Shown here: positions 19,831-50,135 of the stretch, piece by piece
How the letters are laid out: every line of letters starts with the position of its first letter
Position numbering within the stretch: position 1 is the stretch's first letter
Source of the DNA: Eledone cirrhosa
Lineage: Eukaryota
Direction of reading: 5' to 3'
DNA: 64,000 nt
NCBI GenBank assembly: GCA_964016885.1
Contig: OZ024742.1
Coordinates: 173,724,001-173,788,000, forward strand
Position numbers and translations under genes: made by a program
The notes under the pieces: model-generated
The model's database searches: none
The model's input: only the letters and a program-made list of their open reading frames with translations
What the model was told of the DNA's origin: nothing

Positions 19831-19834
19831 TATT

Positions 19835-27653: not shown

Positions 27654-27682
27654 ATAATATATATATATAATATATATATATA

Positions 27683-27717
<35 letters not shown>

Positions 27718-27788
27718 AAACAGAAATAGCAACACAATCGCTACACCATATGGAATGAATATATTAGGTTAACGCTTGAAAAAGCAGG

Positions 27789-27838
27789 CAGACGTTCTTA
27801 ACGTTTCGGACGCTAGTTCTTCATTAGAAGAATGACTG
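27789..27838 (-). ncRNA. Degenerate minimal hammerhead motif
   Basis: cagtcattctt-CTAATGA (core G>A)-AGAAC TAGC GTCC-GAAACGTTA^-agaacgtctg. Confidence 0.4.
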
Positions 27839-27902
27839 AGAAATTAGTAAGATTGAAGGGACGAGCGTATCGGAATTGTAAAATAAAAATATATATATAT
27901 AA

Positions 27903-28198
27903 TAATAATAATTGCTACTATGGGCGCAATGCCAGCAATTTGTTCGGGGGGGGGGGCGATTAAATTGACGCCAGTGAGTGATTGGTACATTATTTTATCG
28001 ACACCTAAGGATGTAAGGCAAAGCTAACCTCGGCGGGTTTTGATCTCAATAATAATAATGGTTTCTGATTTCGGCACTAGAGTAGCAATTTCAGGCGAAG
28101 GGAAATCGAATAAATCGAAACCTATAAGTGACTGATACATTATTTTATTGATCCGTAAGGCTGAAAGTCAATTCTAAACTCGGGGAGATTTGAACTCA
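27903..28198 (-). mobile_element. Two 5'-truncated SINEs separated by (AAT)n
   Basis: Both carry ttttatcga/ttttattga..aaggc..ctcgg..tttga(a/t)ctc and abut AAT repeats. Confidence 0.7.
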
Positions 28199-28513
28199 AT
28201 AATAATAATAATAATAAGAAGAATAACAATAATAATAATGTTTTCTTTATTAACCACAAGAGTTTACATAAAGTAGACATTAAGGACAGTACAGGACAAT
28301 ACAGGACGGTACAAATGGGCATTTCTGCGTGTAAAAAAAAACAGAGGATGAAATAAAATAACAAAGAAAAATTCCCCAATAGGGGGGAGACTTCCGAGGG
28401 ACATTTGTGTAGAAAGCCCATTAAAAGACCACAGTGGCCCTGACCACCAGGGCAAGTGCCCTCTCCCAGTTTTCCACCTTTAATTTACAGACACATACTC
28501 AGAGAAGGCCCAT

Positions 28514-31500
28514 TCATTCGGGCCATACTGCTTCTCTCACCCATCTTTCAACAAAATGCTGGGAAGAGAGCACTTCCCTCTCTACCCTGATTTTCCTTTT
28601 CAGATGAAATTTGAAAAAGTTAATCAGGGCATCACCGAAGAGGTAAGTGCTCGTCTTCAGCCCTTTCAAACGTGTCCACCATACTATCTCTTCCGCCATG
28701 GCCACCAGACAGATAAAAACTGCCTGCCCTTCCCGGCTAAAGGAAGGGGGCGGGGCAATCCTCACGATGGACTCAGCTGATAGCTGGATCGGTCCTACAC
28801 GTGACAGCAGGTGTTCGACATAAACCCACAAGTCAGCAATGCTCGGACACTGGACGAGTGCGTGCAGGACGGTTTCGTCGCCTTGCGCGCATCTCGGACA
28901 TGCCCGGCTGACGGCACCTCCATGCCCGTAGAGTTTATCCCGAACTGGCAAAGCTCATCGGTAGCACTGCCAGGCCAGGGATTTCTAGAAGTTGTCCATA
29001 GGCCCTGGCCCGAAAGTTCTTCCGAAGAGATTGGCTAGTTGATTTTCGTCGACGCCTAGAGTTTCTCCAAGTACGTCGTCGCTCTTCCCCTCCACTAATC
29101 CCCTATAGAACGCCAAGGTGGAGTTTCCACCGATCACATTGCCCGATTGGTCGAGGGCTGTGAGCGCCTGAAGACATTCCAGTCTCCAAGCGCTCCCTCT
29201 CGGTCTTCGCTTGACCCAGGACTGCAGCTCCGTCAAGGAGACGAGCTGGGGAAAAACGTGTCTCGCAAACGGCGACCACACCTGATCACCGTCGAGGAAG
29301 AGGTGTAGATGTCGTAGCCTGAGTGCGTGTCTGCGCATCATCAGCCACGGCATGCCCAGCCCTCCACGTAGCGGGTGTTGACAGCAGATGAACCGCCTGA
29401 CCATCGGAGCGCGTCCCTTCCACAAGAAGCGAAAGAGCAAACGCTCCAGCGCAGTCAGGCGGGGCATAGGACAAGGTACGACGGTCAGGCGGTAGTAGAT
29501 GACGGATGCGATGTACGCGTTCGCCACCTCCGCTCGACCTTTCAGGGATAGCTTCCTCTCGGCCCATTTCTGGGTGAGAGAAGCCACCCTGATCGTCACC
29601 TCGTCCCAGTTTTTGTCCGTCTGGAGGTCTGGACCGAACCAGACCCCTAGCAATTTAACCGGTCCGTCCGTCCAGCGCCCGACTACGCTGTTGGACGGCA
29701 TGGACCTGCCTCTCCAGGTGCCGAGCTACAGGCCCACTGACTTTTCCTGGTTGATCATTGCTCCTGTCACCGCTTCGTATTCTCTTAGTGTAGTGCCGAT
29801 CGCCTCGATATGTTTGGCGTTCGACACCACTACGGTGACATCGTCGGCATATGCTGACACGGATCTTCCGCATCCTAGTTCGCGCGGGACCCCCCTCAAC
29901 GTCTCCAGTTTGTGCAGTAATGGCTCGAGAGTCAATACGTACAATAGGGACGAGAGGGGACATCCTTGGCGGACCGAGCGCATGATGTTGAACGGTTCCG
30001 AAAGATGACCGTTCACTCTCACTACAGAGCAGATGTCGCTGTGCATGGCAGCGATCCAGCCTCTGAAGACGGGCCCAAAGCCAGCCGCCCTCAGGACTGC
30101 CGCTAGGTAACGATGGTCGACCCTATCGAAGGCATTCGACTGATCTAAATTGATCAAAGACCCACCCGTGCCAGGTTCCCAAGCTACCCTCTCTACGATG
30201 TATCGCATGAGGTGGAGGTTGTCGTGTATGGATCTGTCGGGAATGGCGCATGTCTGTGCCTCTCCCACCAGACCACCAACGACAAGCGCCAACCTCTTTG
30301 CTAGCACCTTGGCCAAAATCTTGAACTCTGTGTTTAGCAGAGTTATGGGCCTAAAATTATCTATGTTATCCCCCTTGTTCGGATCCTTTCTCAGCAGTGC
30401 CACCGCTCCTCGGCTCACAGAAATGGGAATTCTCCCGTTCTGTTGCCAGTTGCAGTAGACGTCCGCCAAGAGGCCTCCGAACAAGTTTGGCATTTGTACG
30501 TAAAGTTCATAGGGCAGACCATCCAAACCAGGCGATTTACCCCTTGTGCAACTAGTCATTGCATCCCGTACTTCAGCGGTTGTTATCGGCTTTTCGCAAC
30601 ACTCCGCCTCAGTAGCCGAAAGCCGCGGCAGTCCGTCGAGGTAGACACTAAAGTCCATCCCTCGATCCGGCCCGCCACTGCCCCCGAACAGTTGAGCGAA
30701 GTGTCGCTGAAAAGCTTCACACATTTGCCCGGGATCGAGTAGCATGCGCCCGTCGTGGTCCACCAAAGACCGGATCGTGGCTTTGTTGCCACGACGCGCC
30801 TCCGCCACTAGGGCCCATTGAACGGCTTTCGTCCCCTCGTGTCTGAGAGCACGCACCCTAGCTCTGACAACGCAGCCTTCGTGCTTTGCATTGAAGAATT
30901 GGTCAAGGGCCAATTTCGCCGCAAGTACGTCGGTCGCGATGCCTTTGCTAAGCGCCTCATCTAATTTTCTAACTAATTCTCCCTCTGCTTTATTTTTCTC
31001 TATTGCTAAAGTCTTACTAAACCTAATGGACTCTATTCTAATTGCTCTTTTCAGAGCAAACCACCACTTGTTGTTGACGATGGCCCCCGTCAACGCCCGC
31101 TTAACTAGTGCGCTAATCCGGTCTCTGTAGGCCTTATGCGCTGGTGAGGACGCGTTTAGCTTCCAGTAGCCGGGTCCTTGTCTATGAAGCCTATCTAAGT
31201 CAAGCACACAGATCACGAATTTGTGGTCCGTGTAGCTGACTATCTTGAATTGTGGACAGCCTATGCTAGACCTATCTATTTCCCTACAAAATACTCTATC
31301 TAGATATGATCTGGATGACCCTACGCGATTTGTCCAAGTCCACATTGGTACATTCGGGAAATCCATTCGGTACCTGTCAGACAGTTCAAAACGTCTGAGC
31401 AGGTTGGTGAGACTCTTGCACCCTCCTTCCCTATCCACTAATCCCACACAATCCCAGCGTGCATCTAAGATCCCGTTCCAGTCGCCCACTAACACTAAAG

Positions 31501-31903
31501 AGCGGGACGTTCCAAGAAAGGTCTCCAGATGCCGGAAGAAATCAGGCCGCCCTGCTCCTGTCGGGGCATAGACGGCCACTAACCTGAAAGCTTGCCCGTC
31601 TCCGCTGGTCACGTCCAGCACCACCAACTTACCTTCTGGGTCCAGGAAGATGGCCCGTATGGCAAGATCCAAACCTCTCCGAAAAAGCACAGCAACTCCT
31701 CCCGCCGATCCCGGACGGCTGGGAGATGCGTACACATCGTAGCCGCCGAAGATCGGTGCGAAAGCCCGTGCTTCGGAGATTCTGGTCTCGCTGATGGCCA
31801 CTACATCTATGTTTAGTGACCTGAGGTCGTTGAGCAGGTGGCCCTGCTTCCATGACGACCCCAAGCCACGCGCATTTATGCTGCCTATTCTGAGTGAGGT
31901 CAT
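28514..31903 (-). pseudogene. Tx1 ORF2 (APE endonuclease-RT-zinc finger), broken by two in-frame TAG stops
   Basis: SINARGL, ISET, VYAP, GDWN, LDR, TDH; KSPGLDGLP, FRPITLLN, QGCPLS, YADD; CPRC..HALVQC. The three ORF pieces share one frame, and the stops align with Gln in copy B. Confidence 0.93.
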
Positions 31904-31937
31904 GTTGAAAAGGAGTGGAAAAGATGGGAAAGACCAC

Positions 31938-33926
31938 TTACCTTACTTCTCGTAGGGGAAGGACGGTTTGTCCATCATTTACACTTCTTGTGGCCTCCTC
32001 AGGAAGGATGTCCTTATAAATCCTCCTGGAGAGTGCTTGTCGGAAGTCTCCGATGTCTTTGGGGAATTTTTGTTTTAGTGTCATGTACGTTTTCTGTGTG
32101 ATGCGAGTGATTTGTATGTGTGGAGGTGGTGTGAATTTTGGGGTTGTTGTGTAGTCTTTTTCTGTGATGCTGGTGTTGTGTTGGATGTAGTGCAATAATT
32201 GCTTGTTGTTCAAATTTAATGCTGTGTAGTGTGTATCGTTTTGGTTGTTTTGTTTTGTTTGCGTTTGTTGTGGGTTTGTTTCTGTTTCGCACTTTGGTGA
32301 CTTTTGTGGCGTAGGTGATGGTGGTGTTGGAGTTAATGATGGTGATGGTGATGGTGTTGGTGTTTGGGTTGATGGGGTTGGTGATGCTGGTGTGGATGGT
32401 GGCATATATGTCCTAACTTTTTTGTTTCTTAGTTTATTTGTTTCCCTCTGTATTTTGTTTTTGGAGGGGGAAGGAAGAGAATTTTTTTCTTTTTTGGTTT
32501 CTTTTTTTTTTTCCGGATATCGTTTCCCACTCCTCGTCGTCACAATCTGTCTCCAGTTGTGATAGGCCGGGGAGTGGAAAATCCTCCACAGCCGTTAGTT
32601 TTGGTTGTGGTGTGGTGGATGGTGTAGGCGTTGGTGCTAGTTCTGAAGCGTTGGGTGGTGGTGGTGTTGGTTTTGCTGGTGGTGGTAGTGGTGTTGGTTT
32701 TGCTACTGTTGCTGGGGTTGTTGCTGTTATAGTTGCTTCTGTTGTTGCTGCTACAGTTGTTGCTGCCATCTCTGCTACTGGTGGTGTTGATGGTTGTGTC
32801 ACTGGAGTGGGTAGGAGAGGTAGCCTCAACCTTTTAGCCTGAAGGCAGAAAGCCCTTAGGTGGGTTCCTTCACCACAAACGACACACCTAGGTCTTCTGC
32901 CCTCGACAATTACCGTGAGGTGGCTGCCGTCAGTGAGGTCTATTACCTCTGGGATCTCCTCAATGCTTTTTTGGTCCGCTTGGATCAGGAGCTCCATCCC
33001 AGATCCGGACCAGTTTTCCTGCTTTTCTTTTTCTATTGTTATTATTTTCGTGTTGGCCTCGATGCCGGCGAGGACAGCCGCTATTAGCCAGGGAATTTCG
33101 ATGGCCGGTGGAACGTGGGTCACCCTGATCTTTACGAGTCTCTGGCCACAATAGCTTGGGACGAGTGTGAAGTCGTCACTTTTTAATGGGGCCATGGAGT
33201 GTTCTCTAGCCTCCTCTGGTGTTTCAAAGAACACATCCACGGTTCCCTACTTTTGCCCACGTCTGATGTGGGTTTTTCTTGCCCACACATGTCCCAAAGC
33301 TTTTTGGATTTGGGACTCGGATGCCCGTTCCACTCGGCGCGATTTTACATTTATTGTTCTATACGACACGGTGCATAGGCGCCGATGCTCCATTTTATTA
33401 GGTGGGGGGTGAGGCTGACCCTGTACCCATCTTTCTTTACCATTTGTTTGGCATTTTCTAAATCTTCTTGAGTTACGGTAAATGCTTCGAATTGTTTTGC
33501 TACTCTGGCGAAACTGAGAGGGGGTTTTATAATGTCATTGTTGTTGTTGTTGCTATCGTTAATATTAATTTTAGTTTCAGTTGTGGTGGTGACGTCAGTC
33601 GTCTTTGGTGGGGAAGAGTCCATTTTGCTTGATTTCATTTCGACATCACGAGTTAATTTATTTTTTTCTTCTTTTGTTTCTGTTGTCGCGGTGGTGGTGG
33701 TGGTGGTGGTTGTCGCGGTGGTGGTGGTGGTGGAGGCTTTAACACCTGCAGTCATTGGTAATGGCGGGAAATGAATGTCTGCCTGAGACAAATTTAAAAT
33801 ATTGCTACTGCTTATATTTTTTTTTGTGTTGGCAAACGTAGTAACATTTACAATGGTGGTGTCGGTGTGAGGTGTTATTTTGTGAGGAAGGCTTTCAGCT
33901 GCTTCGTGCAGAGGTGAAGTAGCCAT
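31938..33926 (-). pseudogene. Tx1 ORF1 (gag-like nucleic-acid binding protein), frameshifted
   Basis: CVVCGEGTHLRAFC knuckle; Pro/Thr-rich region; homologous to 46582-48087. Confidence 0.85.
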
Positions 33927-34173
33927 TTTTTTTCAAAGAAATTTTTTGATAATAATAAAAGTTAAAATTTTGGGCACAAGGCCCCAATCTTTTTAGGTGT
34001 CCTTTTCGGAAAACAATGTATGTGTGCTTTAACAATAAAAGTTAACAATAAAAGTTAACAATAAAATTTTCCATAAATGGCAATTTTTTAAACAAACGGA
34101 AATAACAAACCTTTGCGGAGCTCACGATAATACGATTTCCTACGTAGGTCGCCAATAATAATAATAATAATAA

Positions 34174-36320
34174 ATGACCACCTAATAACAAATGACCTAT
34201 TTCCCATTGAGCAGAAAGGGTGTAAACGAGGCTCATATGGCTGTAAGGATCAGCTTCTGGTTAACAAAATGATACTGGAAGATTGTCATAATAGACACAA
34301 AAATCTATCGATTGCTTGGATAGATTATAAAAAAGCATTCGATAGTTTGCCACACAGTTGGATTGAAAAATGTTTAGAGATTTTCAAAATATTCCCCGTT
34401 GTCAGGAGGTTTCTGTCATTCAGTATGAAGACAGGGAGAACGACACTCCTTTTGAATAGTGAAACAAAATCACTGGAAGCTGGAGAAGTTAATATTAATT
34501 GTGGAATTTTTCAGGGTGACTCTTTATCACCGCTTTTATTCTGCATCGCACTTATACCATTAAGTAAAATGCTCAATGAAACAAAACATGGATATAGAGT
34601 CTATGACAAAACCATTAATCACCTGTTCTACATGGATGACCTGAAACTATTTGCAAAAAATGATCAACAATTGCAAGGGATATTATCCACTGTGAAGCAG
34701 TTCAGTGATGACATTAAAATGGAGTTTGGACTGGATAAATGCGCCAAAGCAACGTTCACCAGAGGAAAGCTGCTGAAGAGTTCAGACATTAATCTTGATC
34801 GGGGGAACGTGATAAGAGAGCTTGATCAAGAAAAAACTTACAAATATCTAGGTGTTTGTGAAGGAGACGGAATCAAGCACTCGACAATGAGGGAAAGGAT
34901 AAGGAAGGAATGTTACCGCAGAGTCAGAGCAATATTAAGAACGGAATTGAATGCAAGGAATAGGATCGATGCCATAAACACGCTTGCCATACCAGTAGTA
35001 ACCTACAGTTACAATGTCATCAACTGGTCAAGCACAGAGATCCGTAGGCTCGATACAAAAATTCAAAAATTCTTAACCATGCACAGAATGCATCACCCTA
35101 AGGCAGACATAGATAGAATATATCTCCCTAGAAAAGAAGGAGGACGTGGGTTAATCCAGTTAGACATTGCGTTGAAAACTGCAACAATTGCATTATCCAC
35201 ATATCTAAGGGAATCAGATGATTGGATGATCAAACTCGTTTTGAAACACGAAAGCACCAAAAGATCATATTCCATTACAAAAGATGCACAAAGATACAGT
35301 AATGGACTACAAAATTCAGAAGTCCCATTTACTGCTGAAATGGAAAACACAGAAAAAGCAAAGCAGGTAAAAGTAACTGCAAAGAAAGAACTGCTACAGA
35401 AACTGGCTAAGAAATGGCAAGAAAAGCATCTGTATGGAAAATACCCAGAGCGACCTAACAATCCTGATGTTGACAAAACTTTAACCCATCAGTGGTTGGC
35501 ATCCTCTGGACTGAAATCGGAGACTGAAGGACTGATTATATCGGCACAAGATCAGTGTCTGCCAACACAAAATTACCAAGCCAACATAATAAAGAATGGA
35601 TGCAGCCCATTATGCCGTGTATGCAAAAAACAACCAGAGACCATTGACCATATAATTTCAATGTGCAGTCCTATAGCTCCAACCGAATACCTAAACAGGC
35701 ATGACAGAGATGCACAATACATACATTGGATAATGTGTAAGCATTTTGACCTGCCCCATCAAAAGAATTGGTGGGAGCATCAACCACCTCCCATACTTGA
35801 AAAAGATCACATCTCTATCTTGTGGAACTTTAGCATCCAAACAGACCGAAAAATAGATGCAAATAGACCTGATATAATATTGAAGGACTTTCAAAGGAGG
35901 GTATGCCTGCTAATTGATATGTCTGTTCCAATAGACAAGAATGTATCTATAAAAACATTTGAAAAATTGAGCAAGTATAAGGACCTGGAGATAGAAATTG
36001 GAAAAATGTGGAAATTGAGAACTAAAACAATATCAGTGGTTGTGGGCGCTCTGGGAATGATACCTAAGGGGTCTAACGACTACTTATCGCAAATCCCAGG
36101 AAACCCGCGTATAGGAGAAATACAAAAGATAGTACTAATGGGAACTGCCCATATACTAAGGAAGATCCTGTCAATATAAGTACATCACAAGTCTAAACAC
36201 TAAGGATGCATGTGTGAATATGTATGTTCTTTCTTGAACATGGCGGACCTTGTTGTCTCTTGAGGTCACTGGTTGTGACTTGGTGATAACTCGTATGAAC
36301 ATAAAGCAACATAAATGCAA
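34174..36320 (+). mobile_element. R4/Dong-clade RLE non-LTR retrotransposon, family X copy 1 (5' truncated)
   Basis: Starts right after (AAT)n with [16 protein letters not shown]; 3' UTR ends in (AAT)n. Confidence 0.92.
34269..36179 (+). CDS. RT-CCHC-restriction-like endonuclease ORF (636 aa, N-terminally truncated, otherwise open)
   Basis: [62 protein letters not shown]. Confidence 0.9.
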
Positions 36321-36340
36321 ATAATAATAATAATAATAAT

Positions 36341-36972
36341 AAACAGGCATGACAGAGCTGCACAATACATACATTGGATAATGTGTAAGCATTTTGACCT
36401 GCCCCATCAAAAGAATTGGTGGGAGCATCAACCACCTCCCATACTTGAAAAAGATCACATCTCAATCTTGTCGAACTTTAGCATCCAAACAGACCGAAAA
36501 ATAGATGCAAATAGACCTGATACAATATTGAAGGATTTTAAAAAGAGGGTATGCCTGCTAATTGATATGTCTGTTCCGATAGACAAGAATGTATCTATAA
36601 AAACATTTGAAACATTGAGCAAGTATAAGGTCCTGGAGATAGAAATTGGAAAAATGTGGAAATTGAGAACTAAAACAATACCAGTAGTTGTAGGCGCTCT
36701 GGGAATGATACCTAAGGGGTCTAATGATTACTTATCGCAAATCCCAGGAAACCCGCGTATAGGAGAAATACAAAAGATAGTACTAATGGGAACTGCCCAT
36801 ATACTAAGGAAGATTCTGTCAATATAAGTACATCACAAGTCTAAACACTAAAGATGCATGTGTGAGTATGTATGTTCTTTCTTGAACATGGCGGACCTTG
36901 TTGTCTCTTGAGGTCACTGCTTGTGACTTGGTGATAACTCGTATGAACATAAAGCAAGATAAATGCAATTGT
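36341..36972 (+). mobile_element. Family X copy 2, RLE domain and 3' UTR only
   Basis: Near-identical to 35693-36320; lies between (AAT)n tracts. Confidence 0.92.
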
Positions 36973-36995
36973 AATAATAATAATAATAATAATAT

Positions 36996-37768
36996 TGGTT
37001 GAAAAGAGGAGACCTTAAAAAGGCTACAGAAGGAATGTTAATGGCTGCGCAGGAGCAGGCCCTCAAAACGAAGTGGTTGAAACACCATATTTACAAGGAG
37101 GAGGCTAGCCCACTGTGCAGGATCTGTGGAGAGAGAGAGGAGACTGTGGCTCACATTGTATCCGAGTGTAAACAGCTAGCCCAGACCCACTATAAGGGCT
37201 GGAGACATGATGTGATGTGCAGGGTGATCCACTGGCACCTGTGCAAAGTAAACAATTTACCACATTCTGAGAAATGGTATGAGTATACGCCAGAGACGGT
37301 GATAGAGAACGATCAGGTGAAGGTGCTGTGGGATTTTAGGATACAGACGGAAAAGAAACTGGAACACAATAGACCTGACCTGGTGGTTGTGGACAAATAA
37401 AAAAGATCGTGCCTGATTGTGGATGTGGCCTGGCCATTCGACACGAGAGTGCAAGAGAAGGAGGGGGAGAAAATTAACCGATACCAGGACTTAAAGTGGG
37501 AGCTAAAAAGGATTTGGAACTGCCATGAAGTCAAAGTGATCCCGATTGTCGAAGGCGCACTGGGGACTATCTCAAAAAGTTTCCAGGGATGGTTAAAGAA
37601 AATCGGCCCCTTCACACTTTTTGCAACGCTTCAAAAGGCATGCTTGCTGGGGACAGCAAGCAAGAACCCTCCGATACGTCCTGAATATCTGAGGCTGCAG
37701 GTAGTGGCTTGATATTCATTCCAACAAACTTTCCAGTTAACTAACATTAATGACTGAGACTCAAGGAG
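36996..37768 (+). mobile_element. R4/Dong family Y, 5'-truncated copy
   Basis: CRICGEREETVAHIVSEC and RPDLVV; near-identical to 41955-42720; (AAT)n on both sides. Confidence 0.92.
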
Positions 37769-37947
37769 TAATAACAATAATAATAATAATAATAATAATA
37801 ATAGGGAAGAAGACGCACATGGTGGATAGAAGGTCGTGAAATCGCTCCCGTAAGTTTTGATTTTTAACATTTTTAAATTAATTGTGAAATAACAATTCTT
37901 AGTACAAATGATACATAAAGCATCCGGCTTAAGTCTCCCAAAATTCG

Positions 37948-38195
37948 GATCCATAATATATTGTTATATCGCTCAAATATTCAATTTTGTATTATACATT
38001 TTATATTCAAAAAAGAAAATGGTTATAAATGGAAGAAAACACCCTCTGTCTACACTATATAGAACAGCCAAATAACAACAATTTCACCAACACCACCAGA
38101 AACTAGATACACCACCTACCCCATCACCCCATCAACCCTCTGTGTATACTAAACACAACAGCCAGATAACGGCAATTTCGCCACCACCAATATCA
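37948..38195. repeat. Unassigned ~250 bp non-coding repeat, second copy at 48102-48345
   Basis: ggatccataatat...aaatggaagaaaac...aactagatacaccacc...cagccagataac is shared by both copies. Confidence 0.8.
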
Positions 38196-39229
38196 TCATA
38201 ATAATAATAATTACTATTATTATTGTCTCAAGTTTTAACAAAATGTTTAATTCCAATATTAAGAACACATGTCAACACATATACGCGACTAACCCCATAG
38301 ATTCACCGATCAAACAAAAATACAGTCTATTCAACAAAACTCAGTAACGACAACGCCATCACTACAGTCACCGCCGCCGCCGCCCATCAATCATTACTAC
38401 CACTATCCCATCACCGCCGCCACCACTCCTTCATTGCTACCACCGCATCCCCCCATTACTTTCTGTTAACTTACGAAAGGGGAAGGCGGCGGTATCACTA
38501 GACAATATTAATAAACAAGATTAATATTTAATTTTGGATCAGGAATGTTAGAGTCGAAAAGGAGGAAAATGACAAAATGACTAAATAACTAAAGATAATT
38601 TCACCACCAACACCATGAAAACTCTGGTCAACTCGACTCAACCGCTATTTCTACTCAAACTTCAACACCATCATTACAGTACTACGATCACATCACCACC
38701 ACCACTCCCTCATTATCGCTACCGCCGCTATTCTATCCCACTACTTCCTGGTAGTTGCTGCTAGCACAGCACCGCCACCACAACCACCACCACTGCCTCA
38801 TTATCACTACCGCCGCTATTCTCTCCCGCTAGCCCTTGCTACATCGTAGAATCCCCACTAAAAGAGGAGGGCATCAAAATATATAAATAGACTGAATTGA
38901 TGTCCCGGTCAAAATCAAAAATACAAAAATCAAAATCAAAGCAGCACAGCAACAACGAAAAACGTAAAGAAAATAAAAATGAAGAGAAAAACAAACAGAC
39001 GGACAGAAAAGGGAAGGGAAAAACTAAGTCAGACATTCAAACACCACATTACAATGAAACTTATGCTTATTCATTTTGGGGGTTTCTTTTGCCTGTTTGT
39101 TTGTTTGTTTATTTATGTTCGTCTACAGCGTGATAATGCCACACAAAAAAAAACGTGGAGTGACGAAACCACCGGAGGCGATGAAATCACCTGTGGTTAT
39201 GTAACCATACATTCGGCAATCCTCGATAA

Positions 39230-42200
39230 GAGTGTTTAAATGTCGATCCTAAACAGTTCGAATTACGGTGAAATGGAGACTAGAATGTCAGGTGCACCCT
39301 GGCTCAGCAGCAGGGACCTGGCTGTCAACCAAATACTGCTGGTGTCGGAGGAAGAAGAAGAAGGAAAGGGACCAGAACCAACTGGACGAAAGAATTGAAT
39401 AGAACTGTTATGCAATGTTACCTGAAGAGTAACCCCAAGGAGAAAGGCTATAGGAAACGCATGCATAACATCTGGAACGAGATTGGTCTATTTAAATTAG
39501 ATGAACAAAAATTGGCCGGGCAGGCTCGGGTAATAAGAACTGATGGGTGGATAAGCGAGCTGGAACTGGAGGAACTAAGCAGAGAGATTAGCTTGGAGAT
39601 GGAGAGTGGAGTATGCCAGGCAAACGAGCCAGTGGGAAATGAAGGTGAAGAGGTCGAGAGAACGGAGGAACCCCCCGAAGCAGACAATGATTTGAATACT
39701 GAGATAAATAATACCTGGAACAGAGATATGGCCATTAAGGAGATGAATGCTGACGGGCTAGGACAAGATTTGGTTGATATCCTAAACTTAGTGGTAGATG
39801 AATTGAACTATGATAGTGGGAGACCTATGAACCTAAGATTTGTAGACAGGAAAAAGTTAAAAGAAACAACAGCTAAGGTAAACAAAGTCATCCCATACCT
39901 TGAGGCGAGGAGCCTTCACCAGTGCAACAATATCCTCAAAGCAACAGCAAATACGGTGAGGAAACTACTTGGTATAAAAGCGAGAGGAAACAACAGACAA
40001 GAAAGAGCAGAGCCTTGGTGGAAGAAACGACTGAGTGGTCAAATCTGGGAAATGAGAAATGATATTGGAAAGCTTGAGTCCCTACTGAATGGGACACTAA
40101 AAAACATAGACACTAAAAATAGACTGGAAATAAAGTACAAAACTAGGAGGAAAAAGCTAAATATTATCATAGAGGAGCTGAAGCAACGCATTGTAGCAAA
40201 GAGTGCAAAAATCAGGCGATACGAGAACAAAGTCAGTCAGTATAGACAGAACCACATGTTCGACAACAACCAGAAGATGCTGTTTGGACAGCTTGAAGGG
40301 AAAGAAAGAGGCAACGACTTGATCCCTAGGGCGGAACAAACTAAAACATTCTGGAGAGGAATATGGGAGCAGGATGTTAGACATAATGACCAAGCACTGT
40401 GGATTGAGACAGTACAGAAGGAGATCGGTGAACAGGCACACCAACAAACTGATTTGAGTATCACAGTTGAAACTCTTAGGGGGCAGGCCAAAAAACTAAC
40501 CAACTGGAAATCACCAGGCCCAGATGGTGTGCAGAGGTATTGGATTAAAAATATAACATCCCTCCACCCGAAACTGACAACCATGTTCAATGACTGCTTG
40601 ATGTCAGGTGAGGTACCAGAGTGGTTGACAAAAGGTACCACAGTTCTGATAATGAAAGACCGAATCAAGGGTAATGATGTTACCAACTATAGACCTATCA
40701 CATGTCTGTCCGTAACGTGGAAACTGTTGACGAGCATTGTGTCTGAGGAAATCTACCATCGCCTCCACACAAACAACTTGTTACCGGACGAACAGAAAGG
40801 ATGCCGAAAGAAGTCACGTGATACAAATGACCAGTTACTTATTGATAAGATGGTAATGGGGAATTGCAAGAGGAGACAGACTGATCTTGCCATGGGATGG
40901 ATAGACTACAGAAAGGCATTTGACATGGTGCCTCATTCTTTGGATCACCAAAGGCCTGGAGATCTTCAAGGTGGCAGATAACATCAGACAGTTGTTGGGC
41001 AAAAGTATGAGGTCCTGGGAAACAGAGTTGACATCAACTGGAGAATCCTTGGGAAGCGTGAAGATCAAGAGAGGTATCTTTCAGGGAGATAGCCTGTCCC
41101 CTCTGTTGTTTGTGCTTGCCCTGATGCCCCTGACCAGTGTACTGCGAAAAGTGAGAGCAGGATACAGGTTGGGAAAGGGAGGGCTTACCATCAATCACCT
41201 CCTCTTCATGAACGATCTTAAGCTCTTCGGGAAGAGTGAGAAGGAGTTGGATGTGCTTGTTGACACTGTCCGTATTTTCAGCAGTGATATATGTATGCAG
41301 TTTGGTGTTAGTAAGTGTGGAGTCATTGGGATGAGGAGGGGTAGGTTGAGCAGAAGTAACGGAATCCAGATACCAACAGGTGAGATGATAAAGGAAATTG
41401 ACTCTGAGGAAGGATACAAGTATTTGGGCGTTCTGGAGGCTGATGGCATAAAGAACAAAAAAATGAAGGAATTGTTAAGAACTGAATACATTCGGAGAAT
41501 AAGGAGCGTATTAAAGTCACATCTGAACAGCAGAAATGCCATAAGCGCAGTAAATTCCCGAGCTGTGTCTATTATTAGGTACAGTGCGGGAATTCTGAGA
41601 TGGAATGTTGCTGAACAAAAAAAGAAATGGATAGGAAGACTAGGAAGCTATTGACTATCTACAACATGTTCCACAAGAGGAGGGATGTCGATAGACTCTA
41701 CCTAAGGAGATCTGAGGGTCGAAGAGGTCTTATCAGCATAGAGGACTGTGTTCAGATGGAGAAAAACAACCTACACAAATACGTGAATGATAGTAAGGAG
41801 CCAATGCTCAGAACTGTACTGAAGGAGGGGACAATAGGCCAGGGGATGTCCAAGGAGGAAATAACATCAAGGAGAAAGAGCAGCCTTCAGGAAAAATCCC
41901 TTCATAGTACCTTCTTTGAGAAAACTGAATTTAGAGATCCACAGACATGGAACGGGTTGAGAAGGGGAGACCTTAAAAAGGCTACAGAAGGAATGTTAAT
42001 GGCGGCGCAGGAGCAGGCCCTAAAAACGAAGTGGTTGAAACACCATATTTACAAGGAGGAGGCTAGCCCACTGTGCAGGATCTGTGGAGAGAGAGAGGAG
42101 ACTGTGGCTCACATTGTATCCGAGTGTAAACACCTAGCCCAGAATCACTATAAAGGCTGGAGACATGATGTGATGGGCAGAGTGATCCACTGGTACCTGT

Positions 42201-42720
42201 GCAAAGTAAACAATTTACCACATTCTGAGAAATGGTATGAGCATAACCCAGAGGCGGTGATGGAGAACAATCAGGTGAAGGTGCTGTGGGATTTTAGGAT
42301 ACAGACGGACAAGAAACTGGAACACAATAGACCTGACCTGGTGTTGTGGACAAGGAAAAAGATCGTGTCTGATTGTGGATGTGGCCTGCCCAGTCGACAT
42401 GAGAGTGCAAGAGAAGGAGAGGGAGAAAATTAACCGATACCAGGACTAAAAGTGGGAGGTAAAAAGGATTTGGAACTGCCATGAAGTCAAAGTGATCCCG
42501 ATTGTCATAGGCGCACTGGGGACTATCTCCAAAAGTTTCCAGGGATGGTTAAGGAAAATCGCCCCCTTCACGCTTTTTGGAACGCTTCAAAAGGCATGCT
42601 TGCTGGGAACAGCAAGAACCCTCCGATACGTCCTGAATATCTGAGACTGCAGGTAGTGGCTTGATATTCATTCCAACGGACTTTCCTGTTAACTAACATC
42701 AATGACTGAGACTCAAGGAG
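39230..42720 (+). mobile_element. R4/Dong family Y, near full-length with frameshifts
   Basis: N-terminal VMQCY..GYRKRM..EQKLAGQARVI domain; [37 protein letters not shown] and RLE across ORFs 39395-40981, 40920-41654 and 41627-42433; (AAT)n tail. Confidence 0.92.
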
Positions 42721-42763
42721 TAATAACAATATTAATAATAATAATAATGATATTAATAATAAT

Positions 42764-45700
42764 GGTTTCTTTATTGGCCACAAGGTCTGACATCAAGAAA
42801 AACATTACAGACGGCACAGGACGGTAGGGTACGGTACGATGTGGGTTTTGTGCGTGTAAATCTTTTTATTATTTATATAAGAAAAGAAAAAAAGGACATA
42901 GAAACGTATATATATATATAAACAATAAAAATGAAAATTGAAACAATGAAAAATTCCCCAATAGGGGGGAAACCTCCGAGGGTTACGCATGACGAAAACC
43001 ACACAAAAGACCACGGCCACCCTGACCACCAGGGCAAGTGCCCTCTCTCAATTTTTCCATCTCTCAAACTACAGACGTATATTCAAAGTGGTCCCGTTCA
43101 CTCGGTCCATTCTCGCTACATTCACCCACCTTTCAACAAACTTGCTAGAAAGCAACACTTGCTTCCCCACCCTGATTTTCCTCTTCAAGTGAAACTTGAA
43201 AAAGTTAATTAGGGATTCGCCGAAGAGGAAAGGGTCTGTCTCTAACCCTTTTAACCTTGTGTACCACACAATATCTTTCGCCATGGCCACTAGGCAGATG
43301 AAAACCGCCTGCCCTTCCTCCTCGAAGGAAGACGGCGAGACCATCTGCACAATGGACTCAACCGGATCAGCCCCACACGCGACAGCAACTGTTCGACATA
43401 GCTCCACAAGTCAGCATTGCTCGGGCAATGAACGAGTGCGTGCTCAACCGTTTCGTCGCTCTGCGCGCATCTCGGACAGGCTCGGCTGACGGCACTTCCA
43501 TACCTGTAGAGCTTATCTCGAACCGGCAGCGCTCCCCGGTAGCACTGCCAGGCCAGGGATTTTTGGAAGTTATCCATATACCCCGGGCTGAAAGTTCTCC
43601 GGAAGAGAGCAAACAGCTGATCTTCTTCGACGCCCAGGATCTCTCCGAGAATGTCATCGCTCTTCCCCTCCACTAGTCCTCTATAGAACGCCGAGGTGGA
43701 TGTGCCACCAATACTGGTGCCCAGCTGGGAGAGGGCAGTGAGCGCCTGGAGACATTCCAGTTTCCAAGCGCTATCCCTCGGTCTTTTTCTGACCCAGGAC
43801 TGCAACTCCGTCAAGGAGACGAGCTGTGGGAAAACGTGCCTGGCAAACGGCGACCACACCCGTTCACCATCAAGGAAGCACCAGAGATGTCGCAGCCTCA
43901 GCGCATGTTTGCGCATCATCAGCCATGGCATGCCCAGTCCTCCACGCAACGGGTGTTGACAGCAGATGGATCGTCTGACCATGTGGGTGCGTCCCCCCTT
44001 CCACAAAAAGCGGAAGAGGAGGCCCTCCATTTTGGTGAGAGTCGGGCTGGAGCAAGGGACGACGGTGAGGCGGTAGCAGATGACGGATGCGATGTACGCA
44101 TTCGCCACCTCCGCCCTGCCTTTCAGGGACAGCTTCCTCTCAGCCCATTTATGGGTGAGGGAGGCTACCCTGTTCGTCACCTCGTTCCAGTTTTTCTCCA
44201 ACTAGAGGTCCCGTCCGACCCAGACCCCGAGCAATTTAACCGGTCCGTCCGTCCAACGCCCCAGGACGCTTTCGGACGGCATAGACTTGTCTCTGCATGT
44301 GCCAAGCTGCAAGCCCACCGACTTTTCCTGGTTTATCTTTGCTCCTGTCATCGCTTCGTATTCCTTGAGAGCGCTGCCGAGCATCTTGACGTGCCTGGTG
44401 CTCGACACCACCACGGTAACGTCGTAAGCGTAAGCCGACTCGGATTTCCCGCATCCTAGTTCGTGTGGAACCCCCCTCATCGCCGCTAGTTTGTGCAGTA
44501 ACGGCTCGAGAGCCAATACGTACAAGAGGGACGACGAGAGGGGCAACCCTCGCGGACTGAGAGCATGATGCTGAACGGCTGCAACAGGTGACCGTTCACC
44601 CTCACAACTGAGCAGATATCGCTGTATATTGCTGCGATCCAACCCCTGAAAACGGGCCCTAAACCGGCTGCCTCGAGGACCGCCGCCAGGTACCGATGGT
44701 CGAACCTATCGAATGCTTTGGATTGATCCATGTTGATCAGGGCCCCACCCGAGCCAGGTTCCTTAACGACCCTTTCTATGATGTATCGCATGTGGTGGAC
44801 GTTGTCGTGTATGGATATGTCTGCGCCTCTCCCACCAGTCCCTTGACGACAAGCGCCAACTGCGCTGCTAAAACCTTGTCCAAAACATTGAACTCTGCGT
44901 TTAGCAGGGTTATGGGCCTGAAATTATCGATAACATCCCCCTTGTTCGGATCTTTTCTCAGCAGCGCCACTGCTCCCCCGCTCACAAAACTGGGAATGCT
45001 CCCGTTCTGCTGCCAGTTGCAGTAGACGTCTGCCAAGAGGTCGCGCAAGAAGTCTGGCATAAATGCATAAACTCGTAGAGCCGACCATCCAAACCTGGCG
45101 ATTTACCCCTTGTGCAGTTAGCCGTATTTCACCGGCTGTTGTTGGCTTTTCGCACACTGTGCTGCGGTCGTCGAGAGCCGAGGCAGTCCGTCGAAGCATG
45201 CACTGAAGTCCATGCCCCGATCCGGGCCGTCGCCGCTCCCGAAGAGTTCAGCAAAGTGCTGCTGAAAAGCTTCACACATCTGCTCGGGTTCGAGCATCAC
45301 GCACCCGTTTTGGTCAGACAAAAACCGAATTGTGGCTTCGTTTCCACGTAGCGCCTCTGCCACCCGGGCCCATTGGACGGCTTATTAACTCCTCGTGTTT
45401 CAGAGCATGCGCTCTAGCTCTGAAAACGCAGCCTTCGTGTTTTGCATTGAAGAATTCGTCGAGTGCCAATCTCGCCGCAAGCACGTCGGTTGCGATGCCT
45501 GTCCTAAACACCTCTTCTAGCTTTCTGAGTAGCTCTCCCTCTACTCTATTTTCCTCTATCACAACTCCTTTGCTAAACCTAATCGACTCTACTATAATTG
45601 CCCTTTTCAGGGCGAACCACCACCTGTTGTTGACGGCCGCTCCCGTCAACGTCCGCTTAACTAATACGCTAATCCGGTCTATGTAGGCTTTGCGCGCCGG

Positions 45701-48075
45701 GAAAGACGCGTTCAGCTTCCAGTAACCAGGCCCTTGTCTATGAAGTCTGTCTATGTCGATCTCACAGATCACAAATTTATGGTCTGTGTAGTCGACTATT
45801 TTAAATTGTGGACAACTTATACTAGCCTTATCTAGTTCTTTGCAGAATACCCTATCGAGATACAATCTGGATGACCCGATGCGGTTTGTCCATGTCCACA
45901 TTGGCACATTCGGGTGATCCAGTCGATACCTGTCAGACAGTTCAAAACGTCTGAGCAGGTTGGTGAGGCTTTTGCACCATCCTCCCCTATCCAATAGCCC
46001 CACACAATCCCAGCGTGCATCCAAGACACCGTTCCAGTCGCTCACTAACACTAAAGAGCGGGACGTTCCAAGAAAGGTCTCTAGACGTCTGAAGAAATCT
46101 GACCGTCCTGCCCCTGTCGGGGCGTATACGGCTACTAGTCTGAAAGCATTGCCTTCACTGCCGGTCACGTCCAGCACCACCAACTTACCTTCTGGGTCTA
46201 GGAAGATGGCCCGTATCGCGAGATCCAAGCCTCTCCGAAAAAGGACGGCAACCCCTCTCCCCGATCCTGGACGGCTGGGAGATGCGTAGACATGGTAGCC
46301 GCCGAAGATCGGTGCGAAGGCTTCTGCTTCGGAGATTCTGGTTTCACAGATGACCACCACATCTATGTTTAGTGACCTGAGGTCGTTGAGCAGGTGACCC
46401 TGCTTCCAAGATGACCGCAGGCCACGTGCATTTATACTGCCTATTCTGAGTACGGCCATGTAGGATGAGAAACGGGGCAAGTGAGAAAGGGTCACTTACC
46501 TTGATCGTGTGGTGAAGGGACAGTAGAACCGTCTTTTTCGCTGGTCATGGGTGTTTCCAAGAGGATGTCAGTGTATATCCTCTAGGTAACCGACCCTCTG
46601 AAGTCTCCTACTGCCTTGAGGAATTTTTGTTTTAAAGGTTTGTACTGTTCTATTGAGATTTCAATGATGCTTATGTTTGTCGGGAGAGTTCTTGGTGTTT
46701 GTGGGGTGTAGTAGTTTTTTTCTGTGATGTCTGTGTGCTCCTTTATATATTGTATGAGTACTTTTTTCGCCATGTTTATGACTGTGTACTTTTTGGGGGG
46801 AGGGGTTATTTTGTTGCTGTTTGTTGTGTGTTGGTGTTTTTTGGTGATGCTGGTGGTGGTGTGGTTGGTGTTGTCAGTGGTGCTTGTGGTGGTGATGGTG
46901 GTGGTGTTGCTGTAAGTTTCCTTGCTGCCTTTACCCCCCTTTGTAAGCCTTCGCTTTTGAAGTGTGAATCTAAGGGTTTTTTTTCTTTTTTCTGTTTTGT
47001 GGCAGACGGTTTGCCACTTCACTCCCGCCTCAAACTTCATGTCGGATTCCGTGGCGTCTGTGAGGGGTATGTGCTCCATGGCTGTTGATGGCGGTAATGG
47101 AGCCCTCTTCGGCAATTTTCTTGCTGGTGTAGCTAATTCAGATGTCGCTATTGGTGTTGCCGCCACTGATGATGATGCTTTAGTTGTCCGTGGCCTTGGT
47201 ACGGGTGCTACGGACGTTGCGCTCCTACTCACCGTGGAAGGGGCTTCTGCGTTTGTTGCCTGCTCTGCTCTTGGTAGCAGCGGACCAGGTATTGAAAGGA
47301 GAGGGGCCTTCTTCTTCGCTGTCTTCTGCGGGAAAAAGGCCCTGAGGTGACCCTTCGACCCACAGAGATGACATCTTGGCCGTCTTCCTTCTACACTTAT
47401 AGGGAGTTGGAGTCCTTCCTCGATGTCTATGATATCGGGGATAGTGTCGATACATTCCTGGTCAGTTTGTATAAGCATTTGCATGCCTCTACCTGACCAG
47501 TTCTCTCTCCCTATTGTTTCTACTTGCAGCATGGTCGTCCTGTGCAAGGACAGACGCGGCCAACCAAGGTATGGGCACGTCGATTGGGACCTGGGTAACT
47601 TTGACCCTCACAATTTTCTGCCCGCAGTAGGGGGGCACCAAGACTATCTCCTCACTCTTTAGGGTTTCCAAAGAGTGAGACTTTACCTCCTGGGGGGTGG
47701 CGAAAAGTACGTCTACTGTGGGGTACTTTCTGCCTCGGGTTATGTGGGTTTTGCGTGCCCAGAAGCACCCCAAGGTCCTTTTGGATCTGAGCCTCCGTGG
47801 CTCTCTCCACCCGATGTGAGATTTTGCTTACGGTGTGGTAAGTCACCGTCCGTAGCTGCTGGTCCTTGAAAAATATCGGGTGGAGGTTTCAGGGAGACTC
47901 TACTGGCGCTTCTTTTCACAATGGCCATTGCGACTGCCATCTCCTCCTCTGTGACTACCACTGTCTCGATATTTCGGGCGACACCTGTAAAAGAACTGTT
48001 CCCTTTTTCAGCAGCACCGCTATTGCTGCCGCTACTGGTCTTACTGGTGCTGCTGAGATCGCTATTACAGATAAT
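42764..48075 (-). mobile_element. Tx1-type LINE copy B, more decayed, 5' truncated in ORF1
   Basis: ORF2 pieces 45314-46495, 44202-45363 and 43069-44201 are homologous to copy A; ORF1 CHLCGSKGHLRAF; tail-to-tail with family Y across (AAT)n. Confidence 0.92.
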
Positions 48076-48351
48076 AACTAGACTCAACTCTCAGAAAATT
48101 AGGATCCATAATATCCTGTTATATCGCTCAAATATCCAATTTTGTATTATAAATTGTATATTCAAAAAAAGAAAATGGTTATAAATGGAAGAAAACCCCT
48201 TCTGTCTACACCACTATATAGAACAGCCAAATGACAGCAATTTCACCAACACCACAAACTAGATACACCACCTATCCCATTACCCCTCTGTGTACACTAA
48301 ATACAACAGCCAGATAACAGCAATTTAACCACCACCACCACCAATCCCAAC

Positions 48352-49905
48352 AAACAGAGACCATTGATCATATAATTTCAATGTGCAGTCCTATAGCTCT
48401 AACCGTATACCTAAAAAGGCATGACAGAGCTGCAAAATACATACATTGGATAATGTGTAAGCATTTTAACCTGCCCCAGGTTAAGGAAGGAATGTTACCG
48501 CAGAGTAAGAGCAATATTAAGGATGGAATTGAATGCAAGGAATAGGATCGATGCCATAAACACGCTTGCCATACCAGTAGTAACCTACAGTTACAATGTC
48601 ATCAACTGGTCAAGACCAGAGATCCGTAGGCTCGTTACAAAAATTCGAAAATTCTTAACCATGCACAGAATGCATCACCTTAAGGCAGATACAGATAGAA
48701 TATATCTCCCTAGGAAAGAAGGAGGACGTGGGTTAATCCAGTTAGACATTGCGTTGAAAACTGCAATAATTGGATTATCTACATATCTAAGGGAATCACA
48801 TGATTGGATGATCAAACTCGTTTTGAAACACGAAAGCATCAAAAGATCATACTCCATTACAAAAGATGCACAAAGATACAGTAATGGACTACAAATTTCA
48901 GAAGTCCAATTTACTGCTGAAATGTAAAACACAAAAAAAGCAAAGCTGGTAGAAGTAACTGCAAAGAAAGAACTGCTACAGAAACTGGCTAAGAAATGGC
49001 AAGAAAAGCCTCTGTATGGAAAATAAGCAGAACGAGATAACAATCCTGATGTTGATAAAACTTTAACCCATCAGTGGTTGGCATCCTCTGGACTGAAATC
49101 GGAGACTGAAGGACTGATAATATCAGCACAAGATCAGTGTCTGCCAACAAAAAAATACCAAGCCAACATAATAAAAAATGGATGCAGCCTATTATGCCGT
49201 GTATGTAAAAAACAACCAGAGACCATTGACCATATAATTTCAATGTGCAGTCCTATAGCTCCAAAGGAATACCTAAAAAGGCATGACAGTGATGCACAAT
49301 ACAGACTTTGGATAATGTGTAAGCATTTTGACCTGCCCCATCAAAAGAATTGGTGGGAGCATCAACCACCTCCCATACTTGAAAAAGATCACATCTCAAT
49401 CTTGTCGAACTTTAGCATCCAAACATACCGAAAAATAGATGCAAATAGACCTGATATAATACTAAAGGACTTTAAAAAGAGGGTATGCCTGCTAATTGAT
49501 ATGTCTGTTCTAATAGACAAGAATGTATCTATAAAAACATTTGAAAAATTGAGCAAGTATAAGGACCTGGAGATAGAAATTGGAAAAATGTGGAAATTGA
49601 GAACTAAAACAATACCAGTGGTTGTAGGCGCTCTAGGAATGATACCTAAGGGGTCTAATGATTACTTATCGCAAATCCCAGGAAACCCGCGTATAGGAGA
49701 AATACAAAAGATAGTACTAATGGGAACTGCCCATATACTAAGGAAGATTCTGTCAATATAAGTACATCACAAGTCTAAACACCTAAAGATGCATGTGTGT
49801 GTATGTATGTTCTTTCTTGAACATGGCGGACCTTGTTGTCTCTTGAGGTCACTGGTTGTGACTTGGTGATAACTTGTATGAACATAAAGCAAGATAAATG
49901 CAATT

Positions 49906-49907
<2 letters not shown>
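48352..49907 (+). mobile_element. Family X copy 3 (5' truncated, with stops) and an extra out-of-order 5' fragment
   Basis: 48483-49907 matches 34900-36320; 48352-48478 matches ~35630-35758; (AAT)n at 49908-49973. Confidence 0.9.
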
Positions 49908-49952
<45 letters not shown>

Positions 49953-50135
49953 TATAATAATAATAATAATAATAAACTCATATCTGTATATATACAGAGT
50001 GGATAACCGAGACTACGCCAATATGTATATAGATATACATATTTTTTCCACATGTAAACATGCGAGAAAATGCGAATTTCCCTATGAATTGAAAACAAAA
50101 AGGATAAACACCTTTAATCGATTTGTATGTAAGCA

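What the first reader, a model, noticed from the sequence alone, without database searches (positions are those of the whole stretch)
27900..49973. 22 kb retrotransposon stack in one (AAT)n microsatellite, with strand sorted by endonuclease class
Seen: AAT runs on the same strand at ~27900, 28049, 28198, 34154, 36320, 36972, 37769, 38200, 42721 and 49908 separate the elements. All five RLE elements are on + with (AAT)n tails; both Tx1 elements and the SINEs are on - with (ATT)n tails. Known: Dong/R4 elements target (TAA)n and some Tx1 families target microsatellites. Inference: two unrelated endonucleases (RLE and APE) converged on the same repeat but prime on opposite strands, and each insertion regenerates the target.
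Basis: partly seen in the sequence, partly recalled or inferred. Interest (0 to 1): 0.72.

Follow-up and report, generated by a model that had tools for sequence, protein, structure and literature searches.

The report
Opposite-strand retrotransposons stacking in AAT repeats
Two unrelated kinds of jumping gene and a short passenger element sit end to end in AAT repeats here and across this animal genome, facing opposite ways almost without exception, likely because each kind cuts its own strand of the repeat and leaves fresh repeat for the next arrival.

Summary
The stack is real: two SINE fragments, two Tx1-like LINEs (APE; minus strand, ATT flanks) and five Dong/R4-like LINE copies (RLE; plus strand, AAT flanks). 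The targeting is genuine. Elsewhere in the genome, 5′-truncated Dong-like copies have AAT upstream in 110 of 139 (ATT 0), and Tx1-like copies have ATT in 25 of 45 (AAT 0). A CR1-like LINE with ATT tails has it in 0 of 26. 172 of 174 LINE–LINE neighbours obey the polarity. SINE and Tx1 target duplications begin Y|ATTA, which points to a nick at T|purine on the AAT strand. Corrections: the run at 38200 lies inside Y's 5′ UTR. The T2/X junction (~48075) has no run, so 'one microsatellite' is unproven. Polarity looks like a trait of these two lineages, not of endonuclease class: TRAS/SART (both APE) face opposite ways, Keno/Utopia (APE/RLE) share the same 3′ flank, and a sister Tx1 here targets (ATCT)n. 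Dong–TAA targeting is known. I found no paper on an (ATT)n-targeting Tx1 or on this pairing. The scan has already reported the same phenomenon at least eight times on other DNA of this genome. New variant of a known kind.

The parts
27899..27910 (+). (AAT)n run; (ATT)n tail of SINE a; left end of stack
27911..28047 (-). SINE a, 5'-truncated at the B-box, old (top-10 identity to other copies 79.6%)
28048..28059 (+). (AAT)4; tail of SINE b and 5' flank of SINE a
28060..28197 (-). SINE b, 5'-truncated at the same place, old (73.9%)
28198..28239 (+). imperfect (AAT)14; (ATT)n tail of T1
28240..34153 (-). T1: full-length Tx1-like LINE (ORF1 in pieces, ORF2 APE+RT with a stop at ~29728), young (98.4%); 5' UTR carries a SINE/3'-end-like motif with a short ATT run at 33949
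34154..34173 (+). (AAT)6 between T1 head and X1 head
34174..36319 (+). X1: 5'-truncated Dong/R4-like RLE LINE (RT, CCHC, PD..D), 98.6%
36320..36342 (+). (AAT)7
36340..36970 (+). X2: 3' fragment of X, 98.2%
36972..36994 (+). (AAT)7
36997..37768 (+). Y 3' fragment, 95.4%
37769..37803 (+). imperfect (AAT)11
37803..42720 (+). Y: full-length second Dong/R4-like family (ORF frameshifted; 33-47% aa to X), 96.4%; 5' end shared by many copies
38198..38223 (+). AAT/ATT runs internal to the X/Y 5' UTR (not an element boundary)
42721..42763 (+). imperfect (AAT)14; Y tail meets T2 tail
42764..48073 (-). T2: second Tx1-like family (79% nt to T1), decayed, missing ~610-710 bp at its 5' end, 94.0%
48074..48345 (+). 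junction without a full AAT run, then a fragment of the X/Y 5' UTR
48349..49906 (+). X3: displaced 130-bp X piece plus 1.4-kb X 3' part, 97.0%
49907..49974 (+). (AAT)22 with one interruption; X3 tail, right end of stack

Best explanation
[quoted passage not shown] Shown: polarity, 5'-flank enrichment, repeat on both sides of new copies, and 10-22-bp target duplications starting Y|ATTA for the SINE and for several Tx1 copies. Inferred: the Tx1 APE nicks the AAT strand at T|purine (5'-AAT|AAT-3'); the RLE nicks the ATT strand (register not resolved); RNA ends reading AUU or AAU pair with the primer; T1/T2 mobilise the SINE. Each insertion leaves repeat at both ends, so any seed (a native run, a SINE tail or a CR1-like tail) likely grows into a polarised array over successive waves. 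Occasional 5' deletions remove a run, as at ~48075. The polarity is probably inherited in each lineage, not fixed by enzyme class.
For: 5' flanks of truncated copies (195 loci after dropping 4 that overlap the window; duplicates removed): X 50/65 AAT, Y 60/74 AAT, none ATT; T1+T1b+T2 25/45 ATT, none AAT. Full-length T 24/24 ATT; full-length X/Y 16/25 AAT, most of the rest degenerate (AAG) runs. Null 118/20,000. Control: a CR1-like LINE has ATT tails in 26/30 but ATT or AAT at 0/26 5' junctions. Neighbours: 172 of 174 LINE-LINE pairs are in the allowed orientation (4 of the 172 are splits of one element). Arrays appear in 4 of 39 randomly chosen 10-kb stretches (L164, L167, L178, L180). T1 3' end: 8,898 exact copies; 84 of the first 100 have (ATT)3 (counted by eye), none poly(A), (AAT)3 or ATCT. 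X 3' end: 4,212 copies; at least 96 of the first 100 have (AAT)3 by eye, none ATT. SINE TSDs: 36 informative of 153 against 0.7 in shuffles; 30/36 start ATTA, 34/36 follow a pyrimidine. T1/T2 show the same signature (L002, L120, L122, L135). The SINE and Tx1 3' ends share a CTTGTG..AA..AGA(AAC) stretch. Copies range from 74% to 98.6% identity to their relatives, which fits growth in waves.
Against: No biochemical test. About 21% of truncated X/Y and 44% of truncated T 5' junctions have no run of 9 nt or more (some are library artefacts such as SINE interruptions, but several are plain unique flanks). Two neighbour pairs break the polarity (L147 tail-to-tail T1; L095 inversion), and one T1 tail (L135) runs into AAT. 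The SINE is loosely targeted: 41 ATT, 1 AAT, 107 none at 5' ends. RLE target duplications and nick register were not resolved. Clade membership was not tested on a tree with named references. Loci were mostly picked by an intact 3' end, and the X sample comes from one contig.
Confidence: 0.8

Rival explanations
1. Strand and repeat choice are set mainly by pairing of a read-through RNA tail (AUU, AAU or AUCU) with the primer, with a loosely specific endonuclease, so the target is inherited through the tail.
For: No poly(A) in 100 T1 ends. T1/T2 and the ATCT family T3 share nearly the same 3' end and a near-identical hairpin loop (TNRVGSSRS vs ANRSGSSRS), yet differ in target. RNA-target annealing is proposed for SART1 and R1Bm (PMC7265360 passages).
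Against: The pyrimidine at -1 of SINE TSDs (34/36) lies outside the pairing stretch, which suggests protein read-out. A CR1-like LINE with ATT tails is not targeted at all (0/26). No ATCT tail among 100 T1 ends. The T1 and T3 endonucleases differ at 39% of residues. Endonuclease swaps transfer TRAS1 specificity to SART1 (PMC7265360 passage).
Confidence: 0.12
2. Endonuclease class itself fixes the strand (RLE gives AAT sense, APE gives ATT sense).
For: In this genome every APE-associated element seen next to the runs (T1, T1b, T2, SINE, CR1-like tails) reads ATT, and both RLE families read AAT.
Against: Only two independent targeted lineages are compared. TRAS/SART (both APE) go opposite ways in one repeat; Keno/Utopia (APE/RLE) share the same 3' flank (PMC10088271, PMC7265360, PMC4640811 passages).
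Confidence: 0.1
3. The runs are only templated tails, and the elements cluster passively or by tandem duplication or misassembly.
For: CR1-like elements here do make ATT tails without targeting. No public contig bridges the window's junctions.
Against: Truncated copies carry the repeat at the 5' side with fixed polarity. The window's copies are 79-97% alike with different breakpoints, not duplicates. The same layout occurs on many contigs and in random stretches. Two short-read contigs of run X2 show truncated X preceded by AAT (X2 may be the source sample).
Confidence: 0.03

Closest known systems
Dong, DongAg, DongBg, D. stevensoni Dong (R4 clade; PMC3812793, PMC7998251, PMC3774820 passages)
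   Same: Single ORF with RT and C-terminal RLE, N-terminal Myb/SANT-like domain without zinc fingers, (TAA)n target read on the sense strand; Dong-R4 is reported as abundant and recently active in octopus (PMC13282606 table 1).
   Different: Nothing essential for X and Y alone. No HDV-like ribozyme was found by my crude descriptor. X and Y share a ~700-bp 5' UTR (72-80%) although their ORFs are only 33-47% identical.
Kibi (TC)n, Koshi (TTC)n, crocodilian Tx1 on (TTCC)n/(TTTC)n (PMC4494074 passages and section 15)
   Same: Tx1-type APE LINEs inserted in a microsatellite, written as a pyrimidine-rich unit (sense orientation assumed from the naming, not checked).
   Different: The target here is (ATT)n, with sister families on (ATCT)n; neither turned up in my searches. 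The target is shared with an RLE element.
TRAS1 and SART1 of Bombyx telomeres (PMC7265360, PMC10088271 passages)
   Same: Two families share one simple repeat in opposite directions and form mixed arrays; TRAS1 nicks at T|A.
   Different: Both are R1-clade APE elements at telomeres. Here the partners are RLE and APE and the target is a dispersed microsatellite.
Keno (Tx1, APE) and Utopia (RLE) in U2 genes (PMC4640811 passage)
   Same: Convergence of an APE and an RLE element on one target.
   Different: Same 3' flank, hence same orientation; the target is a gene, not a repeat that each insertion renews.
SINEU and Tx1-Mar (PMC4494074 passages)
   Same: A SINE assigned to a Tx1 partner by shared target preference.
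   Different: Here the SINE has a tRNA-type head (A/B-box-like motifs seen by eye) and a shared 3' end, and is loosely targeted to ATTAT.

Membership tests
R4/Dong clade (X, Y) | single ORF with RT followed by CCHC and PD..D/ExK endonuclease | tested here: met
   Intact 1216-aa ORF in L101; RVT_1; aligned to R2 proteins through CCHC and RPD..D
R4/Dong clade (X, Y) | N-terminal Myb/SANT-like domain without zinc fingers (PMC7998251) | tested here: inconclusive
   Model pLDDT 90. Top VIA-align rows include NgTRF (Z 5.5, rmsd 5.5, 76 aa), Zeste (5.3, 3.1, 67), R2 residues 141-215 (5.1, 4.9, 75) and ISWI SANT (5.1, 3.1, 63), but all Z < 6 and the top row is unrelated. Foldseek gave nothing at E < 0.001. 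No Cys/His finger in the first 160 aa of X as printed.
R4/Dong clade (X, Y) | insertion in (TAA)n, repeat on both sides | tested here: met
   110/139 truncated 5' flanks AAT, 0 ATT; 147/156 3' flanks AAT only
R4/Dong clade (X, Y) | RT phylogeny with named Dong/R4 sequences | not testable with these tools
   Homolog search returned no named Dong/R4/Hero reference
R4/Dong clade (X, Y) | HDV-like ribozyme at the 5' end (B. mori Dong, PMC3774820) | tested here: inconclusive
   Home-made descriptor without a positive control found none; Rfam none
Tx1 clade (T1, T2, T3) | two ORFs; ORF2 with N-terminal APE, RT, C-terminal zinc knuckle; L1 group | tested here: met
   best solved relative L1 ORF2p E 9e-40 against R2 1e-18
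Tx1 clade (T1, T2, T3) | RT phylogeny placing it in Tx1 rather than L1, near Kibi/Koshi | not testable with these tools
   Closest hits are unnamed fish and environmental proteins at 25-30%; the Tx1 label rests on recall of the architecture
Microsatellite-specific Tx1 elements | more than 20% of flanks in one repeat (criterion of PMC4494074) | tested here: met
   25/45 truncated and 24/24 full-length 5' flanks ATT; T3 12/15 5' flanks ATCT (by eye)
SINE mobilised by Tx1 | shared 3' end and shared target-site signature with the LINE | tested here: met
   mobilisation itself untested, and T3 or other sisters could contribute
TRAS/SART-type opposite-strand pair | both partners R1-clade APE at telomeric repeats | tested here: not met
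   One partner is RLE; the sites are interstitial. It works like TRAS/SART but is not a member.

The most novel reading that the evidence does not exclude
In this Tx1 lineage the target repeat and strand are partly carried by the element's own read-through RNA tail, so a family can switch target (ATT versus ATCT) with little change in the nicking loop. The fixed opposite polarity to Dong-like elements makes thousands of mixed arrays whose read-through transcripts are antisense to the other class, i.e. self-assembling transposon traps.
Probability: 0.12. Interest if true: 0.75.

Novelty: new variant of a known kind. Interest (0 to 1): 0.45.

Why it matters
It gives a natural, very high-copy test set for how LINE endonucleases choose target and strand: two unrelated enzymes on one 3-bp repeat, sister Tx1 enzymes on ATT and ATCT, and a SINE (64,768 exact 3' ends) whose duplications mark the likely cut site. 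It also offers a mechanism for local transposon pile-ups, such as the unexplained hotspots reported for Octopus vulgaris (PMC13282606; link untested), and warns that (AAT)n markers in such genomes are often retrotransposon junctions. Each ingredient has a precedent, so the surprise is moderate.

Tried and rejected
(1) Empty allele and assembly check: contigs of four public runs laid on 26700-28400 and 47800-48700 bridged no junction; no verdict. No RNA holder listed. (2) A DNA search with the X 3' end found nothing because its words are too common; replaced by a pattern search. (3) Rfam gave only low-complexity hits; ARAGORN found no tRNA. (4) An HDV-ribozyme descriptor found none and had no positive control. 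(5) Co-insertion of a Tx1 and a Dong copy at one break: 6 of 16 truncated head-to-head pairs lack a run of 9 nt or more (3 have none; the window's junction is similar), against 0 of 21 pairs with a full-length partner. Not adopted, because a deletion across the run turns both heads into truncated ones by itself, and X/Y heads also meet shortened tails (L150) and unique DNA without a run. (6) RLE target duplications: too few imperfect sites to place the nick. (7) Homolog searches gave no named clade references. (8) The original Dong paper is not held; a guessed paper id was unrelated. Kojima and Fujiwara 2004 was not read, and Repbase was not available. (9) Literature searches for an ATT-targeting Tx1 or this pairing: 0 papers with all 6 terms; listings only, except the papers cited; nothing found, but subscription journals are mostly not covered and no supplements were opened.
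Full report
Observation. Self-comparison and domain scans give this order: SINE-, SINE-, T1-, X+, X+, Y+, Y+, T2-, a UTR fragment and X+. T1 and T2 carry Exo_endo_phos and RVT_1 and are closest to L1 ORF2p. An intact X copy elsewhere (L101, 1216 aa) aligns with R2 proteins through the CCHC and RPD..D region. X and Y are distinct families (33-47% aa). The window lies on contig C3 of a 3.0-Gb genome. Its octopus-like nature is my recall plus earlier scan notes, not a test.

Corrections to the map. T1 is full-length and ends at 34153: the stretch 33990-34153 follows T1 in other copies, and the short run at 33949 is in its 5' UTR. Y 37803-42720 is full-length, and the run at 38200 is internal to the 5' UTR shared by X and Y. 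T2 stops at 48073, while 7 of 14 other copies examined extend ~610-710 bp further to an ATT run. The junction has only ATAATAA and 12 other bases before a UTR fragment. A deletion there could even have fused two arrays, so 'one microsatellite' is open. Public contigs did not bridge it.

Is it targeting or only tails? I fetched loci around T1, Y, X and T2 3' ends and 39 arbitrary 10-kb stretches, then scored junctions on each element's sense strand (195 loci, the 4 overlapping the window dropped). Truncated X: 50 of 65 AAT. Truncated Y: 60 of 74 AAT. Truncated T1/T1b/T2: 25 of 45 ATT. The opposite repeat never appeared. Full-length T: 24 of 24 ATT. Full-length X/Y: 16 of 25 AAT, most others AAG-degenerate. 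Random positions: 118 of 20,000. The misses include library artefacts but also true unique flanks. The key control is a CR1-like LINE (label recalled from its C-terminal motif) whose tails are ATT in 26 of 30 copies but whose 5' junctions show the repeat in 0 of 26. Templated tails alone therefore do not give the pattern, although such tails do seed arrays (a Y copy in 1 and a SINE within 400 bp in 8 of the 30).

Polarity. Of 174 neighbouring LINE pairs, 172 are in the orientation the rule allows: Dong head-to-tail 75, Tx1 head-to-tail 15, mixed head-to-head 37, mixed tail-to-tail 45. Four of these are splits of one element. The two exceptions are a T1 tail-to-tail pair (L147) and an inversion (L095). 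Four of 39 arbitrary stretches hold such arrays. Exact 3'-end counts are 8,898 for T1, 4,212 for X and 64,768 for the SINE (lower bounds). Among the first 100 listed, T1 ends are ATT-type (84 with three units, by eye) and X ends are AAT-type (at least 96, by eye).

Cut site. Pure repeats hide duplications, but the SINE often lands in short sites. 36 of 153 copies have informative 10-22-bp duplications against 0.7 in shuffles; 30 start ATTA and 34 follow C or T (two are one ancestral insertion inside T1). T1/T2 copies in imperfect sites show the same (L002 18 bp, L120, L122, L135). On the other strand this reads TAAT|purine, a pyrimidine-purine step like L1's TTTT/AA (PMC1950540 passage) and TRAS1's TT|AGG (PMC7265360 passage). 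I infer that the Tx1 enzyme nicks the AAT strand there and that it also moves the SINE, whose 3' end resembles the Tx1 3' end. For X and Y the orientation implies a nick on the ATT strand; the register could not be placed.

Class or lineage? A sister Tx1 family, T3 (67% aa to T1 over ORF2; endonuclease 61%), has almost the same 3' end but sits in (ATCT)n: 1,660 exact ends with that tail (the tail was in the pattern) and ATCT at 12 of 15 visible 5' junctions (by eye). APE class thus does not fix the repeat. In print, TRAS/SART (both APE) face opposite ways in one repeat (PMC10088271, PMC7265360, passages), and Keno (APE) and Utopia (RLE) share the same 3' flank (PMC4640811, passage). The simplest reading is two inherited habits that meet on one repeat: Dong's TAA sense strand (PMC3812793, PMC7998251, PMC3774820, passages) and the pyrimidine-rich sense strand of microsatellite Tx1 elements (PMC4494074, passages and section 15; orientation assumed from naming).

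Growth. Top-10 identity to other copies rises from the SINE fragments (74-80%) through T2 (94%), Y (95-96%) and X3 (97%) to X1, X2 and T1 (98%+). This fits seeding at old SINE tails and filling over several waves. The order is inferred.

Known versus new. Dong-R4 and L1-Tx1 are listed as recently active in O. vulgaris without target analysis in the parts I read (PMC13282606, part 1 of 3 and passages), and R4-Dong is noted as cephalopod-enriched (PMC10294476, passages). My searches found no (ATT)n-targeting Tx1 and no RLE/APE pair on opposite strands of one microsatellite. Repbase, Kojima and Fujiwara 2004 and supplements were not seen. Earlier notes of this scan describe the same arrays and the ATCT sister family in other windows of this genome; they are unchecked AI notes and I count only my own tests. 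Verdict: real, well supported as targeting with fixed polarity, mechanism inferred; a new variant of a known kind; interest 0.45.

Noticed in passing
L165, L173, L174, L189, L200-L219: Sister Tx1 family T3 with nearly the same 3' end targets (ATCT)n and forms its own tandem arrays; L165 holds an open 1145-aa ORF2.
   Followed up: yes
window 37803-38505; L098, L101, L110: X and Y share a ~700-bp 5' UTR (72-80% nt) although their ORFs do not align at DNA level, suggesting a UTR swap; the UTR carries its own AAT/ATT run, at or beside which a SINE (L057, L149) and a truncation (L077) occur.
   Followed up: partly
L108, L143, L145, L147 versus window 28240-34153: T1 ORF2 occurs with two different 5' UTR/ORF1 regions (T1, T1b); T1b's ORF1 is 72% like T2's, suggesting ORF1 exchange.
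   Followed up: partly
window 33949-33985: T1's 5' UTR contains a copy of the SINE/Tx1 3'-end motif plus a short ATT run just before the ATG, conserved in other T1 copies.
   Followed up: partly
L100, L101, L160: A T1 subfamily carries the same SINE inserted at about position 1946 with a 20-bp duplication and has spread with it.
   Followed up: no
L033, L125, L138; window 48073-48083: Truncated Tx1 and Dong heads joined with no repeat between them; probably 5' deletions, co-insertion not excluded.
   Followed up: partly
L044, L265-L294: CR1-like LINE with templated (ATT)n tails and no 5' targeting; its tails attract SINEs and Y.
   Followed up: yes
L075, L086, L095, L107, L114, L180: A further Tx1-like 3' end (neither T1 nor T2) abuts AAT runs in the ATT-sense orientation.
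   Followed up: no
window 51817-52326: Head-to-tail SINE array, period 203 bp, 2.6 copies.
   Followed up: no
window 62675-63886 and 19766-20266: Another LINE fragment (RVT_1 + DUF6451) and a weak GIY-YIG hit (Penelope-like, label recalled) outside the stack.
   Followed up: no
L021, L058, L082, L154, L158: AAT runs often grade into (AAG)n just before full-length X/Y heads, which begin with a GAAGAAG-like stretch.
   Followed up: no
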